A DNA stretch of 64,000 nt from assembly GCA_001771575.1 (NCBI GenBank), contig MEUD01000001.1:1575470-1639469 (forward strand), written 5' to 3'. This document shows, piece after piece, positions 13,265 to 27,964 of the stretch (positions within the stretch are counted from its first letter, which is position 1; every line of letters begins with the position of its first letter). The notes under the pieces were generated by a model, which was not told the origin of the DNA, did no database searches, and saw only the letters and a program-made list of their open reading frames with translations. The position numbers and the translations under genes are program-made. The stretch is from a candidate division WOR-1 bacterium RIFOXYB2_FULL_45_9. GTDB lineage: Bacteria; Margulisbacteria; WOR-1; O2-12-FULL-45-9; XYB2-FULL-48-7.

Positions 13265-13846
13265 ATGTACGACCTGGGTTTTTTTCTGATCGCCCTGCCG
13301 ATCCTTTTGGTGACGATAACGATCCATGAGTTTGCCCATGCCTTTGTTGCCGACAAACTGGGCGATCCGACGCCGCGCTTGGCCGGACGGTTGACCCTTA
13401 ATCCTTTAAGTCATCTTGACCCGTTTGGTTTTCTCGCCCTTCTGCTGGTCCGTTTCGGCTGGGCCAAACCGGTCCCGATCAACCCTTACAATTTTCGCGA
13501 CCCTAAAATGGGGAGCCTGCTGGTCAGCCTGGCCGGCCCGCTTTCTAATTTTATCTTTGCCTGGGTCCTGGCGGTAATATTGCGCAATCTGCCGCTCGCC
13601 AATGAAACGGCGGCGATGATGATCAGCTACGCGATCTGGATCAACCTGGCGCTGGCGGTCTTCAACCTGATCCCGGTCCCGCCGCTCGATGGTTCGCACA
13701 TCCTCGAATACTTTCTTCCCCCCCATCAGTACGAGGTGATGGTCCGGCTTCAGCAATATAGTTTCATGATCCTGGTCGGGATCATCTTGTTCGGCTCGCC
13801 GGTTTTGATCGCGATCATCCAGTTTATTTATGGATTGCTGGTCTAA
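13265..13846 (+). CDS. site-2 protease family (M50) zinc metalloprotease
   Basis: HEFAHAF (HExxH) in a TM segment plus the LIPVPPLDGSHIL second motif. Polytopic hydrophobic profile. Confidence 0.8.
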   Translation: MYDLGFFLIALPILLVTITIHEFAHAFVADKLGDPTPRLAGRLTLNPLSHLDPFGFLALLLVRFGWAKPVPINPYNFRDPKMGSLLVSLAGPLSNFIFAWVLAVILRNLPLANETAAMMISYAIWINLALAVFNLIPVPPLDGSHILEYFLPPHQYEVMVRLQQYSFMILVGIILFGSPVLIAIIQFIYGLLV

Positions 13847-13847
13847 G

Positions 13848-13899
13848 CCCCCTCTGTCCCTCGCGGACTCGGGACATCTCCCCCTTATTAAGGGGGAGA
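13848..13899. repeat. left terminal inverted repeat of the DUF559 element (contains palindrome TCTCCCCCTT-ATT-AAGGGGGAGA)
   Basis: See mobile element above. Direct reading of both ends. Confidence 0.65.
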
Positions 13900-13900
13900 A

Positions 13901-13909
13901 TGATATAAT
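13901..13909 (+). promoter_or_regulatory. extended -10 element TGATATAAT just inside the left TIR of the DUF559 element
   Basis: TGnTATAAT at 13901-13909, about 47 nt upstream of the DUF559 start. Confidence 0.4.
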
Positions 13910-13956
13910 CATGCCAATAGACCAATAAAGGATCTTGGGGTTGGAGGGTGTGGGGT

Positions 13957-14379
13957 ATGACAAAGTTTTACAATCGTTTTTCGGATCGATTAAAAAGGAA
14001 GATTCTTCGGAAATATATGACCGAAGCCGAACGAGTGTTGTGGCAGGAAATCAGGAAGAATAAACTTAATTGCCGATTTAGACGTCAGTATAGTATTAAA
14101 GGTTTTGTTCTTGATTTTTATTCTCCTCAAATTAAATTAGCGATTGAAATTGATGGTGATATCCATTCCAGCAAAGAGCATAAGGATTATGATGCGGATA
14201 GAGAACAGCCGATAAGTAATTTTGGGATTAAATTTCTTAGGTTTAGCAACGATGATGTTTTTTTGAGACTCAATAGAGTGATCGTATTAATTAATGAAAA
14301 AATAGTTCAATCTCCCCCTTGCCAAGGGGGAGATGTCCGCCAGAGGCGGACAGAGGGGGTCGTAGGCGCTCATGCGTAA
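13957..14379 (+). CDS. DUF559 domain protein (Vsr-like / PD-(D/E)xK endonuclease fold)
   Basis: AT-rich ORF. GGAGGG RBS 8 nt before ATG 13957. Typical DUF559 core: RQYSIKGFVLDFY…LAIEIDGDIHS…DADREQ…GIKFLRFSNDDV. The last about 20 codons (QSPPCQGGDVRQRRTEGVVGAHA) are translated from the GC-rich right TIR, and the stop overlaps the folC start. The native C-terminus was probably near …LINEKIV. Confidence 0.7.
   Translation: MTKFYNRFSDRLKRKILRKYMTEAERVLWQEIRKNKLNCRFRRQYSIKGFVLDFYSPQIKLAIEIDGDIHSSKEHKDYDADREQPISNFGIKFLRFSNDDVFLRLNRVIVLINEKIVQSPPCQGGDVRQRRTEGVVGAHA
14311..14359. repeat. right terminal inverted repeat of the DUF559 element (contains palindrome TCTCCCCCTT-GCC-AAGGGGGAGA)
   Basis: Reverse complement matches the left TIR. 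It lies inside the 3' read-through tail of the DUF559 ORF. Confidence 0.65.
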
Positions 14380-15535
14380 AAGTGTTGCCGTCGAAAAATA
14401 CCTCTCATCTCTTGAAAAATTCGGGGTGAATCTTGGCCTGGAGAGGATCGCCGCTTTGCTCGGCAAACTCGGCAATCCTCAATTAAAGGTCCAGACGATC
14501 CACGTCGCCGGGACCAACGGCAAAGGGTCGACCTGCGCGATGATCGCGGCGATCCTGAAAGAAGCGGGTTACAAGGTCGGCCTCTACACTTCTCCCCATC
14601 TTATCAGCTACAATGAACGTTTTAAGATCAACGATCGGGAGATCAGCGGACCCGACCTGGCCGCCGGGATAAAAACAGTCCGGTTGGCGGCGGATAAATT
14701 AGCGGACAAACCGACCGTTTTTGAGGTCTTGACCGCCGTCGCCTTCTGGTATTTTGCCAAAGAAAAAGTCGATTACGCGGTGATCGAGGTCGGGATGGGG
14801 GGGCGGCTTGACGCGACCAACGTCATTAGCCCGCTGGTCTCGGTGATCACCAATGTCGAGCTGGAACATACCACCGTCCTTGGCCGGACGCTGGCCAAGA
14901 TCGCGGTGGAAAAAGGGGGGATCATCAAACCCGGAGTGCCGGTCGTGACGGCGGAAAAAAAGGCCGACGTCCTGACAGTCCTGGCGCATCAGGCGGGCAG
15001 GGAACAGAGCCTGCTGGTCCAGATCGGTACCGTGGGAAAAGGGTTTGAGACAAATCTGGTCGGCGCGCATCAAAAGGCCAACGCCGCCTGTGCGGTGGCC
15101 GCGGTCCGTTTGGCCGGGATCGTTGCCGACAAGAAAGCGATCATTGCCGGGCTGAAAAAGGTCAGGTGGCCGGCCCGTTTTCAGGTAATCAAAAAGAGGC
15201 CGCTGACGATCATCGACGGCGCCCATAACCCGTCCGGGATCATGACTTTAGTCGACACGCTTGGGAGCGAATTCCCGGGCCGGAAATTTGTTTTTATTTT
15301 CGGCGCTCAACAGGATAAAGAGACCGGGCCGATGCTCGACTCGCTCCGTCCGCTGGCCGAGGAAATAATCATCACCCGATCGTCACACCAGGATTCTTCA
15401 GCGACGATCTCCGAAGAAAAAGCGCGCCCGCTCCGCGCCGTTTTGCGCCAAACGTCCGGCCGCGACCGGGTGATCTGCGGTTCCCTGTTTTTAGCCGGTG
15501 ATACTTTGAAAATATTGACCAATAAACGCGATTAG
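14372..15535 (+). CDS. folC: folylpolyglutamate synthase / dihydrofolate synthase FolC (Mur ligase family)
   Basis: P-loop HVAGTNGKGST and Mur-ligase blocks (TSPHL, VIEVGMGGRLDATNV, DGAHNP). Confidence 0.85.
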   Translation: MRKSVAVEKYLSSLEKFGVNLGLERIAALLGKLGNPQLKVQTIHVAGTNGKGSTCAMIAAILKEAGYKVGLYTSPHLISYNERFKINDREISGPDLAAGIKTVRLAADKLADKPTVFEVLTAVAFWYFAKEKVDYAVIEVGMGGRLDATNVISPLVSVITNVELEHTTVLGRTLAKIAVEKGGIIKPGVPVVTAEKKADVLTVLAHQAGREQSLLVQIGTVGKGFETNLVGAHQKANAACAVAAVRLAGIVADKKAIIAGLKKVRWPARFQVIKKRPLTIIDGAHNPSGIMTLVDTLGSEFPGRKFVFIFGAQQDKETGPMLDSLRPLAEEIIITRSSHQDSSATISEEKARPLRAVLRQTSGRDRVICGSLFLAGDTLKILTNKRD

Positions 15536-27168: not shown

Positions 27169-27816
27169 ATGAAAACGATCTCCGTCGCGCAAGCCAAAGA
27201 ATTTGACCACCGGGCCCAGGTTGATTTTGGCGTGCCGTCGATCGTTTTGATGGAGAACGCCGGCCGGAGCGCGGCCGAGGTCGCTTTGAAGATGCTTTGG
27301 TGGCGGGAGAGGGCGGCGGTTGTTTGCGGGGTAGGGAATAACGGCGGCGATGGCCTGGTCGCGGCGCGCCACCTTTATAATCAAGGGAAAAAAGTCACGG
27401 TTTTTGTTATTGGGGACCACAACCGGGGGACGATCGATTTTATGGCCAATCTGCTGATAATTGAGCATCTTGGCTTGCCGATCGTTTGGGTCAAAGAAGC
27501 GGTTCAGCTTGAAGAGCTCTCCCAGGCGGAGCTGGTGATCGACGCTCTTTTTGGTTTAGGGTTGACGACTCCTGTTAGGCAACCGGCTAGGGAGATGATC
27601 GAAACGATAAATAGCTTGCGCAGGCCGGTTTTAGCGGTCGATCTTCCATCAGGCTTGAACGCTGATAGCGGCGAGGTGATGGGGGCGGCGGTAAAAGCCA
27701 AGTGTACCGTGACTTTTATCGCTATGAAGAAAGGGTTTTTGTCTCCTCAAGCGAAACAATATTGTGGGCGTATTATTGTAAGAGATATTGGGATTACCTC
27801 ACCCACCATCCGCTAA
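27169..27816 (+). CDS. nnrE: NAD(P)H-hydrate epimerase (YjeF N-terminal domain)
   Basis: YjeF_N hallmarks: CGVGNNGGDGLVAARHL and the LDxxFGxG loop (IDALFGLGL). 215 aa. Confidence 0.8.
   Translation: MKTISVAQAKEFDHRAQVDFGVPSIVLMENAGRSAAEVALKMLWWRERAAVVCGVGNNGGDGLVAARHLYNQGKKVTVFVIGDHNRGTIDFMANLLIIEHLGLPIVWVKEAVQLEELSQAELVIDALFGLGLTTPVRQPAREMIETINSLRRPVLAVDLPSGLNADSGEVMGAAVKAKCTVTFIAMKKGFLSPQAKQYCGRIIVRDIGITSPTIR
27171..27200 (+). repeat. 30-bp direct repeat copy B (GAAAACGATCTCCGTCGCGCAAGCCAAAGA) = codons 2-11 of nnrE
   Basis: See copy A. Confidence 0.7.
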
Positions 27817-27852
27817 AGCGGATGGTCCCCCCTCTCCATTTCATGGAGAGGG
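27805..27852. other. two tandem perfect hairpins at the nnrE stop codon
   Basis: ACCATCCGC-TAAA-GCGGATGGT (27805-27826; the loop contains the TAA stop), then CCCTCTCCAT-TTC-ATGGAGAGGG (27830-27852). No T-tract follows. Confidence 0.5.
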
Positions 27853-27964
27853 CCGGGGATAGGGGAAGCGAAATGCGCGTCCATACTGAACTTGTATTCT
27901 AATCCAGTGCCATTCTTTGGGTGTCTGCCTCACTCAACACTGGGACAAACCGCTCAATAAGCCA

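What the first reader, a model, noticed from the sequence alone, without database searches (positions are those of the whole stretch)
13848..14359. 512-bp TIR-bounded element carrying a DUF559 endonuclease-fold gene, inserted precisely between the M50 protease stop and the folC start
Seen in sequence:
- The left end is CCCCCTCTGTCCCTCGCGGACTCGGGACATCTCCCCCTTATTAAGGGGGAGA.
- The reverse complement of the right end is CCCCCTCTGTCCGCCTCTGGCGGACATCTCCCCCTTGGCAAGGGGGAGA. This makes about 50-bp imperfect terminal inverted repeats, each ending in an 11-bp palindrome (TCTCCCCCTT…AAGGGGGAGA).
- The interior is AT-rich, has its own TGATATAAT -10 element and encodes a DUF559 (Vsr-like) protein.
- The DUF559 ORF reads through the GC-rich right TIR (…QSPPCQGGDVRQ…) and terminates overlapping the folC ATG. 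This points to a recent insertion that created a read-through tail.

Inference: this is a MITE-like or selfish mini-element that mobilises a DUF559 nuclease gene. DUF559 genes are numerous in some uncultivated lineages, and TIR-bounded copies would explain how they spread.
Basis: seen in the sequence. Interest (0 to 1): 0.65.

Follow-up and report, generated by a model that had tools for sequence, protein, structure and literature searches.

The report
Nuclease gene bracketed by triplex-motif repeats
A small Vsr-like (DUF559) nuclease gene, bracketed by two inverted copies of a known "BoxC/PIT" triplex-forming DNA repeat, was inserted long ago between two housekeeping genes, and the same nuclease-plus-repeat pairing recurs across many bacterial phyla including E. 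coli, so this orphan repeat family may have a partner enzyme.

Summary
Window 13848-14359 carries about 50-nt inverted ends around an AT-rich DUF559 gene whose ORF reads through the right end and overlaps the folC ATG.

- It is an insertion. More distant relatives with identical synteny have M50 and folC 1-7 nt apart.
- It is not recent. Three genomes share it at the same site. The gene is under purifying selection (dN/dS about 0.2). All six end substitutions fall in loops.
- No target-site duplication, transposase or second copy was found.

The "TIRs" are not private transposon ends. Each is a hairpin (TCTCCCCCTT-N3-AAGGGGGAGA) plus a mirror-image arm (CCCCCTCT / AGAGGGGG). This is the BoxC/PIT/intrastrand-triplex class described in E. 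coli and cyanobacteria, whose function is unknown and for which no partner gene was found.
- The exact hairpin occurs in more than 119 genome stretches across many phyla, mostly solo.
- 84% of DUF559 homologues carry such a motif upstream and 66% downstream, against 1-4% for other genes. Sequence variants keep the mirror relation.
- E. coli ycjD shows the same link.

Best reading: a nuclease-repeat unit analogous to REP-RAYT. The mechanism is inferred, not shown.

The parts
13848..13899 (+). Left triplex-motif (TM) copy, the 'left TIR'. Hoogsteen-type arm CCCCCTCT (13848-13855); mini-hairpin TGTCCC..GGGACA (13855-13876); pyrimidine arm TCTCCCCCTT (13877-13886); loop ATT; purine arm AAGGGGGAGA (13890-13899). 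Class IV order on the + strand, class II on the - strand.
   Evidence: The arm is the exact mirror image of the stem (8 of 8 triplet-compatible positions, read from the sequence). Stems are identical in L001 and L213; only the mini-hairpin loop differs.
13901..13909 (+). TGATATAAT, an extended -10-like element directly after the left TM. Possible promoter of the DUF559 gene.
   Evidence: Sequence. Conserved in all three genomes while the next ~35 nt vary. There is no -35, and the consensus scan finds no two-hexamer promoter. Function is inferred.
13943..13948 (+). GGAGGG Shine-Dalgarno-like sequence inside the purine-rich stretch GGGGTTGGAGGGTGTGGGGT, 8 nt before the ATG.
   Evidence: conserved. 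In many homologous loci the 3' purine arm of the upstream TM (for example AGGAGGGGT) lies a few to about 12 nt before the DUF559 ATG. A cluster of hairpins ends 10-23 nt before the start codon.
13957..14379 (+). DUF559 (Vsr-like PD-(D/E)XK nuclease) gene, 140 aa, start MTKFYN. The core domain ends at about 14306. Residues from about 119 onward (SPPCQGGDVRQRRTEGVVGAHA) are translated from the right TM and spacer.
   Evidence: Pfam PF04480 E 1.2e-25. PDB 3HRL E 1.5e-11. AF2 model pLDDT 80 with residues 125-140 below 50. Foldseek: 3HRL, then I-Bth0305I. Invariant D53, E64, D66, H70, D79. dN/dS 0.17-0.20.
14311..14359 (+). Right TM copy, the 'right TIR'. Pyrimidine arm TCTCCCCCTT (14311-14320); loop GCC; purine arm AAGGGGGAGA (14324-14333); mini-hairpin TGTCCGCC-AGA-GGCGGACA (14334-14352); reverse-Hoogsteen-type arm AGAGGGGG (14352-14359). 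Class II order on the + strand.
   Evidence: Only loop positions differ in L001 and L213.
13265..13846 (+). Upstream host gene, a peptidase M50 family protein. Its stop codon lies 1 nt before the left TM.
   Evidence: In empty-site relatives it is followed by folC after 1-7 nt.
14372..15535 (+). Downstream host gene folC. Its ATG is overlapped by the end of the DUF559 ORF (ATGCGTAA), which gives possible translational coupling.
   Evidence: The same overlap is present in L001 and L213.
27797..27870 (+). A third, solo TM-like element of a different sequence variant: arm CCTCACCC, mini-hairpin ATCCGC-TAA-GCGGAT, CCCCTCTCCAT-TTC-ATGGAGAGGGC, then a G-rich stretch. It lies on the stop codon of a YjeF_N ORF.
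   Evidence: It is the same variant family as the L167 flanks and the E. coli BoxC consensus (PMC4666352).

Best explanation
The feature is a ~520-bp cassette. A Vsr-like DUF559 nuclease gene is bracketed by two inverted copies of a BoxC/PIT-type intrastrand triplex motif (TM). Each TM is a homopyrimidine/homopurine hairpin plus a mirror-image third arm, here joined through a small GC hairpin.

Shown:
- The whole block (TM, gene, TM) entered the M50|folC junction in the common ancestor of at least three WOR-1/Saganbacteria-type genomes.
- It has since been inherited vertically under purifying selection, on both the protein and the TM stems.
- The ORF runs through the right TM and ends on the folC start codon.
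- The TMs belong to a dispersed repeat family found across phyla. It is mostly solo, intergenic, and sometimes in-frame inside genes.
- DUF559 genes are the one gene family found consistently flanked by it.

Inferred:
- The nuclease and the motif form a functional pair analogous to RAYT and REP. The protein would recognise the TM, folded or duplex, and nick or cut it.
- Break repair templated by a TM-flanked copy (homing-like) would then spread or maintain the cassette, the solo TMs, or both.
- Read-through into folC restores the translational coupling that the insertion broke.
For: Insertion and age:
- Empty sites in L214 and L215/L216.
- The same cassette at the same site in L001 and L213.
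- dN/dS 0.17-0.20 for DUF559, against 0.10 for M50 and 0.23-0.24 for folC.
- 6 substitutions in about 19 loop positions against 0 in about 82 stem and arm positions.

Motif class:
- 117 of 123 exact hairpin copies in species genomes carry the mirror arm within 40 nt, with a modal linker of 3 nt. The four control arm-sequence and position combinations each occur in only 3-12 copies.
- Long linkers fold more stably than their shuffles in 30 of 34 cases, mostly as mini-hairpins of varied sequence.
- The architecture equals the class II/IV intrastrand triplex motifs and BoxC/PIT elements of PMC4666352. For the E. coli motif a triplex was shown in vitro.

Gene-motif link:
- 68 of 81 DUF559 homologues have a pyrimidine/purine hairpin within 120 nt upstream, and 55 of 83 have one downstream.
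- Controls: 4 of 269 random windows; 2 of 157 and 7 of 178 for other ORFs in the same loci.
- Stem sequences differ between loci and the outer arms co-vary as mirror images: 27-32% against 6-8% when permuted, with a maximum of 14%.
- The upstream and downstream motifs of one gene share the same variant: 57% against 14%.
- All 3 DUF559 ORFs in 843 kb around solo TMs abut a TM.
- The same TM sequence flanks homologues only 55-56% identical in unrelated contexts (L004, L133).
- E. coli ycjD (31% identical) ends in a degenerate TM and has a perfect BoxC about 170 nt downstream.
- A Cylindrospermum homologue has a TM upstream and four in tandem downstream.

Nuclease precedent:
- The fold matches 3HRL and the homing endonuclease I-Bth0305I (PMC3239194).
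- A DUF559 protein causes DNA damage in Caulobacter (PMC12907096).
Against: - No cleavage, binding or mobility was observed. Everything mechanistic is inferred.
- There is no second copy of this TM variant, and no second DUF559, in the 64-kb window.
- There is no TM at the empty site, so this insertion was not obviously homing into an existing solo TM.
- No target-site duplication was found.
- In the few loci that also have distant hairpins, those do not significantly match the variant next to DUF559 (20% against 13%).
- PMC4666352 found no triplex in vivo by DMS footprinting, and reports an earlier study that found no promoter or terminator activity for the E. coli motif.
- The metagenome loci are not phylogenetically independent, and some contigs are near-duplicates (for example L161 and L162).
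- A 140-aa PD-(D/E)XK nuclease cannot by itself perform strand transfer.
- The cassette has stayed put for a long time, which fits domestication as well as selfishness.
Confidence: 0.5

Rival explanations
1. Classical TIR-bounded transposon or MITE-like element. The ~50-nt inverted ends are transposon ends recognised by the element's own DUF559 nuclease, which excises and reinserts the unit.
For: Inverted ends bound the AT-rich cargo exactly. An empty site exists in relatives. Two-sided solo TMs (34 of 123) could be internal-deletion derivatives, as MITEs are. TnsA of Tn7 is a PD-(D/E)XK nuclease and appears among weak fold matches.
Against: No target-site duplication. No DDE, tyrosine, serine or HUH transposase; the only gene is a 140-aa nuclease. 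No second copy in 64 kb. The element is old and under purifying selection. In the 12 homologues where both arms could be scored, the ends are outward-inverted in 4, inward-inverted in 3, direct in 1 and mixed in 4. Most TM copies are one-sided singles.
Confidence: 0.1
2. The TMs are cis-acting expression or insulation modules of a horizontally transferred gene. They would present the Shine-Dalgarno sequence at the 5' end, stabilise or terminate the mRNA at the 3' end, and shield against read-through. The nuclease would not act on them. The cassette would move by ordinary horizontal transfer and recombination at unstable TM sites.
For: In many loci the 3' purine arm of the upstream TM (AGGAGGGGT and similar) lies a few to about 12 nt before the ATG, and a cluster of hairpins ends 10-23 nt upstream of it. 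The downstream TM overlaps the stop codon in many homologues. PMC4666352 reports that TM loci are rearrangement-prone. The E. coli ycjD region is replaced by another island in about 2050 of 5426 genomes, with a breakpoint near the BoxC.
Against: In this window the left TM lies upstream of the putative -10 element, so it would not be in the mRNA. PMC4666352 reports no promoter or terminator activity for PIT elements. None of the TMs here has a T-run terminator. This model gives no reason for the mirror-arm (triplex) constraint, nor for why DUF559 genes in particular carry TMs when other genes in the same loci do not.
Confidence: 0.2
3. Domesticated housekeeping nuclease. DUF559 is a Vsr-like repair enzyme that resolves or repairs hairpin or triplex structures (or mismatches) arising at TMs. 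Its gene sits among TMs because TMs accumulate there or regulate it. It is not selfish.
For: Long vertical retention with dN/dS about 0.2 and conserved catalytic residues. It appears to be single-copy. The Caulobacter DUF559 protein VsrA is proposed to be a mismatch-repair endonuclease (PMC12907096). RAYTs are likewise regarded as domesticated, single-copy genes (PMC5581495).
Against: Its distribution is patchy, with presence/absence between close relatives. GC3 is strongly foreign (0.31-0.35 against 0.66-0.72) and is kept in all three genomes. Cassettes occur in unrelated contexts and in viral contigs.
Confidence: 0.15

Closest known systems
BoxC / PIT (potential intrastrand triplex) elements / intrastrand triplex motifs (TM, TMECO). 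Holder et al. 2015, PMC4666352, which cites Hoyne/Maher 2000 and the 1990s BoxC work.
   Same: Three consecutive homopyrimidine/homopurine blocks on one strand (Y-R-R' or H-Y-R) with mirror symmetry and short loops. GC-rich, highly conserved, dispersed, mostly intergenic, and present in many phyla including cyanobacteria. E. coli BoxC is the same architecture, and a copy lies beside the DUF559 gene ycjD.
   Different: The sequence variant is CCCCCTCT/TCTCCCCCTT rather than CCCTCNCCC. In the window the second linker is a 17-21-nt mini-hairpin rather than the 1-6-nt loop used in the ITxF definition. The published work found no associated gene function or mobility activity, whereas here the motif brackets a nuclease gene.
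REP sequences / REPINs and their RAYT transposase (PMC3116915, PMC3337134, PMC5581495)
   Same: A usually single-copy enzyme gene is flanked by copies of a short palindromic repeat that is otherwise dispersed through the genome. Both are vertically retained over long periods. Repeat variants go with the gene.
   Different: The enzyme is a Vsr-like PD-(D/E)XK nuclease, not a Y1/HUH transposase. The repeat carries a mirror (triplex-type) arm. No enzyme-repeat interaction has been shown for DUF559.
EDxHD / Vsr-like homing endonucleases, for example I-Bth0305I (PMC3239194), and free-standing homing endonuclease genes
   Same: The same nuclease fold (Foldseek hit 3R3P). A small selfish-looking gene with foreign composition. 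Presence/absence at a conserved site. Homologues of the EDxHD family occur as free-standing genes.
   Different: There is no intron or intein host and no NUMOD DNA-binding domain. The insertion site is not a conserved coding target. The flanks are a repeat, not a split target sequence.
MITEs and small TIR transposons
   Same: Terminal inverted repeats of about 50 nt around a short AT-rich interior. An empty site exists in relatives.
   Different: No target-site duplication, no transposase, and the ends are copies of an independently dispersed motif.
Rickettsia palindromic elements (in-frame palindromic insertions in protein genes; from my own knowledge, Ogata et al. 2000)
   Same: Solo TMs occur in-frame inside ORFs, for example SPPYQGGD inserts in L039 and L116. 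Here one is translated as the C-terminal tail of DUF559.
   Different: Much shorter, a different sequence, and cross-phylum rather than genus-restricted.

Membership tests
BoxC / PIT / intrastrand triplex motif | Three consecutive homopurine/homopyrimidine blocks on one strand whose third block is triplet-compatible with (a mirror image of) the duplex purine strand. | tested here: met
   Left: CCCCCTCT against GGGGGAGA in parallel, 8 of 8. Right: AGAGGGGG against AAGGGGGAGA antiparallel, 8 of 8 (sequence). 117 of 123 other copies carry the arm. The mirror relation co-varies across variants.
BoxC / PIT / intrastrand triplex motif | Short loops (1-6 nt in ITxF, PMC4666352) between the three blocks. 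| tested here: not met
   The hairpin loop is 3 nt, but the linker to the third arm is a 17-21-nt mini-hairpin in both window copies. Elsewhere the modal linker is 3 nt, and long linkers fold more stably than their shuffles in 30 of 34 cases, mostly as mini-hairpins. The window copies are therefore a structural variant.
BoxC / PIT / intrastrand triplex motif | Multiple dispersed copies within a genome. | tested here: inconclusive
   Only the two flanking copies plus one different variant (27797-27870) occur in 64 kb. The rest of this genome could not be read. Other genomes show 3-6 exact copies among the rows returned.
BoxC / PIT / intrastrand triplex motif | Physical formation of a triple helix. 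| not testable with these tools
   ViennaRNA models only Watson-Crick pairs and leaves the arm single-stranded. For the E. coli motif, CD and NMR show a triplex in vitro but DMS footprinting does not show one in vivo (PMC4666352).
DUF559 / Vsr-like PD-(D/E)XK nuclease | A match to PF04480 above the gathering score. | tested here: met
   89.9 bits against 20.6, E 1.2e-25. NCBIfam PRK09767 (the YcjD equivalog) scores only 39.8 against 218, so it is not a YcjD equivalog.
DUF559 / Vsr-like PD-(D/E)XK nuclease | Vsr-like fold with conserved acidic and His active-site residues. | tested here: met
   AF2 pLDDT 80. Foldseek: 3HRL E 2.6e-5 and I-Bth0305I E 7.8e-4; Vsr itself is only weak (E 0.22). D53, E64, D66, H70 and D79 are invariant in 30 homologues. 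Mapping these onto Vsr D51/H64/H69/D97 is inferred.
DUF559 / Vsr-like PD-(D/E)XK nuclease | Endonuclease activity. | not testable with these tools
   No assay was possible.
TIR transposon / MITE | Terminal inverted repeats. | tested here: met
   In L001 and L213 the inverted repeat extends outward by a further 3-10 nt.
TIR transposon / MITE | Target-site duplication. | tested here: not met
   No direct repeat flanks the ends in the window, L001 or L213 when compared with the empty sites. The empty sites are distant (folC 66-67% identical), so a very short duplication cannot be excluded.
TIR transposon / MITE | A transposase, in cis or elsewhere, and several copies in the genome. | tested here: not met
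   The only ORF is the 140-aa nuclease. There is no other copy in the window.
Free-standing homing endonuclease gene | A nuclease of a family with proven homing endonucleases, and presence/absence at an otherwise conserved locus. | tested here: met
   Fold match to I-Bth0305I. Occupied and empty M50|folC junctions.
Free-standing homing endonuclease gene | Cleavage of the empty allele, and a long specific DNA-binding module. | not testable with these tools
   No assay was possible. The protein has no NUMOD-type extra domain and is only 140 aa.
REPtron (REP-RAYT) | An enzyme gene flanked by inverted copies of a dispersed palindromic repeat. | tested here: met
REPtron (REP-RAYT) | The enzyme is an IS200/IS605-like Y1 (HUH) transposase. 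| tested here: not met
   The enzyme is a PD-(D/E)XK nuclease. This is an analogue, not a member.

The most novel reading that the evidence does not exclude
DUF559 nucleases are the missing trans-acting partners of BoxC/PIT intrastrand-triplex repeats. On this reading, a Vsr-like nuclease recognises a hairpin-plus-mirror-arm (triplex-capable) DNA structure. Through nick- or break-induced copying it spreads and maintains 35-50-nt elements, and its own TM-flanked gene, in intergenic and even coding DNA across many bacterial phyla, E. coli included. This would be a second, mechanistically distinct enzyme-repeat partnership of the REP-RAYT kind.
Probability: 0.3. Interest if true: 0.85.

Novelty: new variant of a known kind. 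Interest (0 to 1): 0.64.

Why it matters
BoxC/PIT/triplex motifs have been known in E. coli since the 1990s and were later counted in hundreds of genomes. Holder et al. 2015 still reported no function, no partner protein and no mobility activity near them. DUF559 is one of the commonest "unknown function" nuclease domains in bacteria.

A consistent physical pairing of the two gives each a testable hypothesis: the nuclease acts on the folded repeat. The pairing holds from uncultivated WOR-1/Saganbacteria to cyanobacteria and E. coli ycjD. E. coli offers an immediate experimental system.

If the link is functional, it would be a new enzyme-repeat partnership alongside REP-RAYT, and a rare case of a biological role for intrastrand triplex-type DNA. 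It could also explain the proline/glycine-rich peptide inserts (SPPxQGGD-like) that these repeats leave in metagenomic proteins.

If the link is only cis-regulatory, it still defines a conserved cassette architecture that is useful for annotation.

Tried and rejected
- Rfam (E up to 10) on 13600-14600 gave only noise hits, the best being RsaF at 18.8 bits against a threshold of 60. No described RNA family covers the ends.
- The promoter/terminator consensus scan found nothing. TGATATAAT remains a sequence-only lead, and the TMs are not T-tailed terminators.
- My first hairpin pattern used a 4-nt loop and found nothing. I corrected it to 3 nt.
- I tested whether read-through into the next gene's start codon is general. 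Only 6 of 77 homologues end within 3 nt of a downstream ORF start. Coupling to folC is therefore a local feature, also seen in L002 and L004, and not a family rule.
- I tested whether other hairpins farther away in the same loci match the variant next to DUF559. The result was not significant (20% against 13%, n=30). Whole genomes are needed.
- Neighbour-gene clustering around 125 solo copies gave no recurrent family. There were only small groups, such as GatC three times, plus ORFs that matched each other only through the translated motif.
- I looked for a clean empty ycjD site in E. coli. Genomes without ycjD carry a different island (TetR + RND) instead, so they are not informative about junctions.
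- PADLOC gave only weak domain-level hits (a methyl-directed REase and DpdF, E about 1e-7). There is no evidence for a defence system.
- Literature searches found no report linking DUF559 to these repeats. The terms covered DUF559, COG2852, EDxHD, the motif sequences and ycjD/BoxC. The BoxC query was swamped by unrelated "BoxCar" hits. The library holds open-access papers only.
Full report
OBSERVATION

After the M50 stop (13844-13846) and one base, the left end (13848-13899) reads CCCCCTCT, then a small hairpin TGTCCC..GGGACA, then TCTCCCCCTT-ATT-AAGGGGGAGA. The right end (14311-14359) is its imperfect inverse: TCTCCCCCTT-GCC-AAGGGGGAGA, then TGTCCGCC-AGA-GGCGGACA, then AGAGGGGG. It stops 12 nt before the folC ATG at 14372.

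The repeat finder returns the 32-nt and 12-nt inverted pairs and the two 11-bp palindromes. Allowing 3 mismatches, the hairpin occurs only at these two places in 64 kb, where 0.01 would be expected. My first pattern used the wrong loop length and found nothing.

As single-stranded DNA each end folds into two adjacent hairpins and leaves the 7-8-nt homopyrimidine or homopurine arm free. The z-scores are -3.7 to -6.3.

The interior has 32-38% GC against about 55% in the flanks. The ORF 13957-14379 is DUF559 (PF04480, E 1.2e-25). It runs through the right end and stops 8 nt into folC.

WHERE THE WINDOW COMES FROM, AND THE AGE OF THE INSERTION

- The folC protein is 100% identical to one from candidate division WOR-1 bacterium RIFOXYA12_FULL_52_29.
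- The closest DUF559 homologue (79% identical) lies in a Margulisiibacteriota MAG at exactly the same place, M50-DUF559-folC, with the same ends (L001).
- A third genome (L213, from a Logan assembly) has it too. L001 and L213 are close to each other (M50 100% aa identical).
- More distant relatives keep the whole gene order M28-NUDIX-XerC-M50-folC-SPOR-MreB-MreC. They have only ccgtccc (L214) or a single c (L215/L216) between M50 and folC, and no repeat there.

So the block was inserted once, as a whole, in the ancestor of a sub-lineage. It is not recent:
- Between the window and L001/L213, DUF559 has dN/dS 0.17-0.20. M50 has 0.10 and folC 0.23-0.24.
- The six substitutions in the two ends all fall in loop positions (about 19 nt). 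None falls in the ~82 stem or arm positions.
- The spacer next to the left end is about half substituted.
- The read-through tail and the overlap with the folC ATG are the same in all three genomes.
- I see no target-site duplication. In L001 and L213 the inverted repeat simply extends a few bases further out.

An oddity: the gene keeps GC3 at 0.31-0.35 against 0.66-0.72 in its neighbours in all three genomes. Its dS (0.54-0.64) is lower than theirs (0.85-1.28).

WHAT THE ENDS ARE

Many distant DUF559 homologues from other phyla end in the same peptide, for example SPPCQGGDIGEV or SPPYQGGD. They therefore read into the same hairpin.

Their loci confirm this.
- L004 lies between carB and an oxidase gene. 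L133 is a second case. Both carry the same CCCCCTCT / TCTCCCCCTT-N3-AAGGGGGAGA / mini-hairpin / AGAGGGGG modules on both sides of a protein only 55-56% identical.
- L002 carries a sequence variant on both sides.

Scanning for the bare hairpin found 9 viral contigs and more than 119 stretches of species genomes. The hits came from Patescibacteria, Dehalococcoidia, Binatia, Gammaproteobacteria, Ignavibacteria, Leptospirales, Planctomycetes and others.

Among the genome copies:
- 117 of 123 carry CCCCCTCT upstream and/or AGAGGGGG downstream, usually 3 nt away, and 34 carry both. The four control arm-sequence and position combinations each occur in only 3-12 copies.
- When the linker is long it folds more stably than its shuffles in 30 of 34 cases, mostly as a small hairpin of variable sequence, exactly as in the window.

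The outer arm is the mirror image of the stem, not its complement. That is the relation needed for a third strand: C+.G-C and T.A-T triplets in parallel, or G.G-C and A.A-T triplets antiparallel.

This architecture has been described. BoxC elements of E. coli were re-described as PIT (potential intrastrand triplex) elements. Holder et al. 2015 (PMC4666352) then called them intrastrand triplex motifs (TM), with the E. coli consensus CCCTCNCCC-N3-6-GGGNGAGGG-N3-GGGNGAGGG. They report:
- a triplex in vitro, but none detected in vivo;
- from an earlier study, no promoter or terminator activity;
- more rearrangement at TM loci;

The window's two ends are class IV and class II TMs on the + strand, with a mini-hairpin in place of the second short loop.

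THE LINK TO DUF559

A metagenome scan with a DUF559 alignment returned 80 loci.

| Set tested | Hairpin within 120 nt upstream | Hairpin downstream |
|---|---|---|
| DUF559 genes | 68 of 81 | 55 of 83 |
| Random windows in the same loci (one count, no upstream/downstream split) | 4 of 269 | |
| Other ORFs of 150 aa or more in the same loci | 2 of 157 | 7 of 178 |

Further points:
- Stem sequences vary between loci (TCCTCCCC, TCCCCCC, TCTCCCTC, CCCTCTCC and others).
- The outer arms change with them so that the mirror relation holds: 27-32% within one mismatch, against 6-8% when stems are permuted between loci (maximum 14% in 200 permutations). The direct relation gives 9-12% and the reverse-complement relation 3-4%.
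- The two flanks of one gene share the same variant in 57% of cases, against 14% permuted.
- Only 3 of 125 exact solo copies abut a DUF559. But those are all the DUF559 ORFs present in the 843 kb around them.
- The solos otherwise sit next to ordinary genes. Some lie in-frame inside ORFs, such as L116, L039 and L046.

This asymmetry resembles REP sequences and their RAYT gene (PMC3116915, PMC5581495). The gene almost always has the repeat, while the repeat rarely has the gene.

The link also holds in cultured organisms.
- E. coli K-12 ycjD is a DUF559 gene 31% identical to this one. It ends inside a degenerate TM. A partial duplicate of its own 3' end follows, and then a perfect BoxC.
- A Cylindrospermum homologue has a TM upstream and four in tandem downstream.
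- High-GC viral contigs show the same arrangement.

The literature I could search does not mention this link.

THE PROTEIN

- It matches the solved DUF559 protein 3HRL by sequence (E 1.5e-11).
- The AlphaFold model has pLDDT 80, with the TM-encoded tail (residues 125-140) below 50.
[quoted passage not shown] PvuRts1I, R2 retrotransposon protein, Vsr and TnsA are weaker hits.
- D53, E64, D66, H70 and D79 are invariant in 30 homologues.
- Published DUF559/Vsr-like proteins include a homing endonuclease that makes 2-nt 5' overhangs at a pseudopalindrome (PMC3239194). They also include Caulobacter VsrA, which causes DNA damage when its cognate methylation is missing (PMC12907096).

HOW IT MOST LIKELY WORKS

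Shown:
- a nuclease gene and its two TM copies form a unit that is conserved across phyla and contexts;
- the unit entered this site as a block;
- both the gene and the TM stems are under selection.

Inferred:
- The nuclease recognises the TM. The mirror-arm constraint argues for a folded form, in single-stranded or supercoiled DNA, but duplex recognition is not excluded.
- A nick or break there, repaired from a TM-flanked copy, propagates or maintains the cassette and perhaps the solo TMs.
- The tail that reaches the folC ATG probably restores the translational coupling that M50-folC had at the empty site. This is local and not general: only 6 of 77 homologues end within 3 nt of a downstream ORF start.
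- In many other loci the 3' purine arm lies a few to about 12 nt before the ATG and looks like the ribosome-binding site. A cis-regulatory role for the upstream TM is therefore a serious rival, or an additional function.
- A plain cut-and-paste transposon is the least supported reading. There is no duplication, no transposase, no fixed end orientation, and the element has resided here for a long time.

Caveats:
- Nothing mechanistic was observed.
- The rest of this genome could not be read.
- The metagenome loci are partly redundant.
- C/T-rich sequences raise chance mirror matches. I controlled for this only by permutation.
- The literature search covers open-access text only.

VERDICT

The element itself is an old, ordinary-looking resident. 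Its wider interest is that its "TIRs" are BoxC/PIT triplex motifs, and that DUF559 genes in general are bracketed by them. As far as I could search, this association is unreported. It is directly testable in E. coli.

Noticed in passing
window 27797-27870: A solo TM-like element of a different variant: arm CCTCACCC, mini-hairpin ATCCGC-TAA-GCGGAT, then CCCCTCTCCAT-TTC-ATGGAGAGGGC. It lies on the stop codon of a YjeF_N-only ORF (27169-27816). No YjeF_C domain ORF follows, so the element may mark a truncation or rearrangement of an nnr-type gene.
   Followed up: partly
L116 1400-1500; L039 7420-7480; L046 310-370: Solo TM copies lie in-frame inside protein genes and are translated. Two tandem copies occur in a YyaL-like 783-aa ORF (TPSVSPPYQGGEL TPSDSPPYQGGDQEGV). 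One occurs in a glycosyltransferase-like ORF (TPTLSPPYQGGDEEGV). One occurs in a UvrA-like ORF (PLNLPLGKGEK). This resembles Rickettsia palindromic elements.
   Followed up: partly
L217 16040-16900 (E. coli K-12 NC_000913.3 1351039-1351899, minus strand): ycjD (DUF559) ends inside a degenerate TM. A ~45-nt duplicate of its own 3' end follows, and then a perfect BoxC. 3375 of 5426 complete E. coli genomes have ycjD. The others carry a TetR + RND-efflux island next to fabI, with the breakpoint about 30-40 nt from the BoxC position.
   Followed up: partly
window 13957-14306; L001 778-1127; L213 1285-1634: The DUF559 core keeps GC3 at 0.31-0.35 while M50 and folC have 0.66-0.72, in all three genomes. 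Its dS (0.54-0.64) is lower than that of the flanking genes (0.85-1.28). It is unexplained whether this reflects selection for AT-richness, an estimation artefact, or occasional re-copying of the cassette.
   Followed up: no
L002 3001-3426 and 5990-6361: Two DUF559 genes of different subfamilies (33% identical by tblastn), each with its own TM variant, flank a single 839-aa HHH_3-domain gene on a 1.5-Mb metagenomic contig.
   Followed up: no
L022, L064, L068 (MAG CAWINI01); L005, L008, L009 (IMG/VR): In some genomes the TM is embedded in a longer repeat of more than 100 nt that recurs with near-identical flanks. In the viral contigs it is paired with a second hairpin, CCTCCCCC-N5-GGGGGAGG, about 60 nt away. 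This suggests composite repeat units.
   Followed up: no
L227 1340-2020 (Cylindrospermum sp. FACHB-282): The DUF559 gene with its TM array sits between hsdR and hsdS genes of a type I restriction-modification locus.
   Followed up: no
L096, L125, L131: Three independent solo TM copies lie directly next to ORFs that cluster together and look like GatC (my reading of the sequences; not checked against Pfam). This may be a preferred site or shared ancestry among Patescibacteria.
   Followed up: no
L213 1661-2857: In the source annotation the folC gene of this contig is called from a GTG inside the right TM (398 aa), not from the ATG used by its relatives. This is an example of TM-derived N-terminal mis-annotation.
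   Followed up: no
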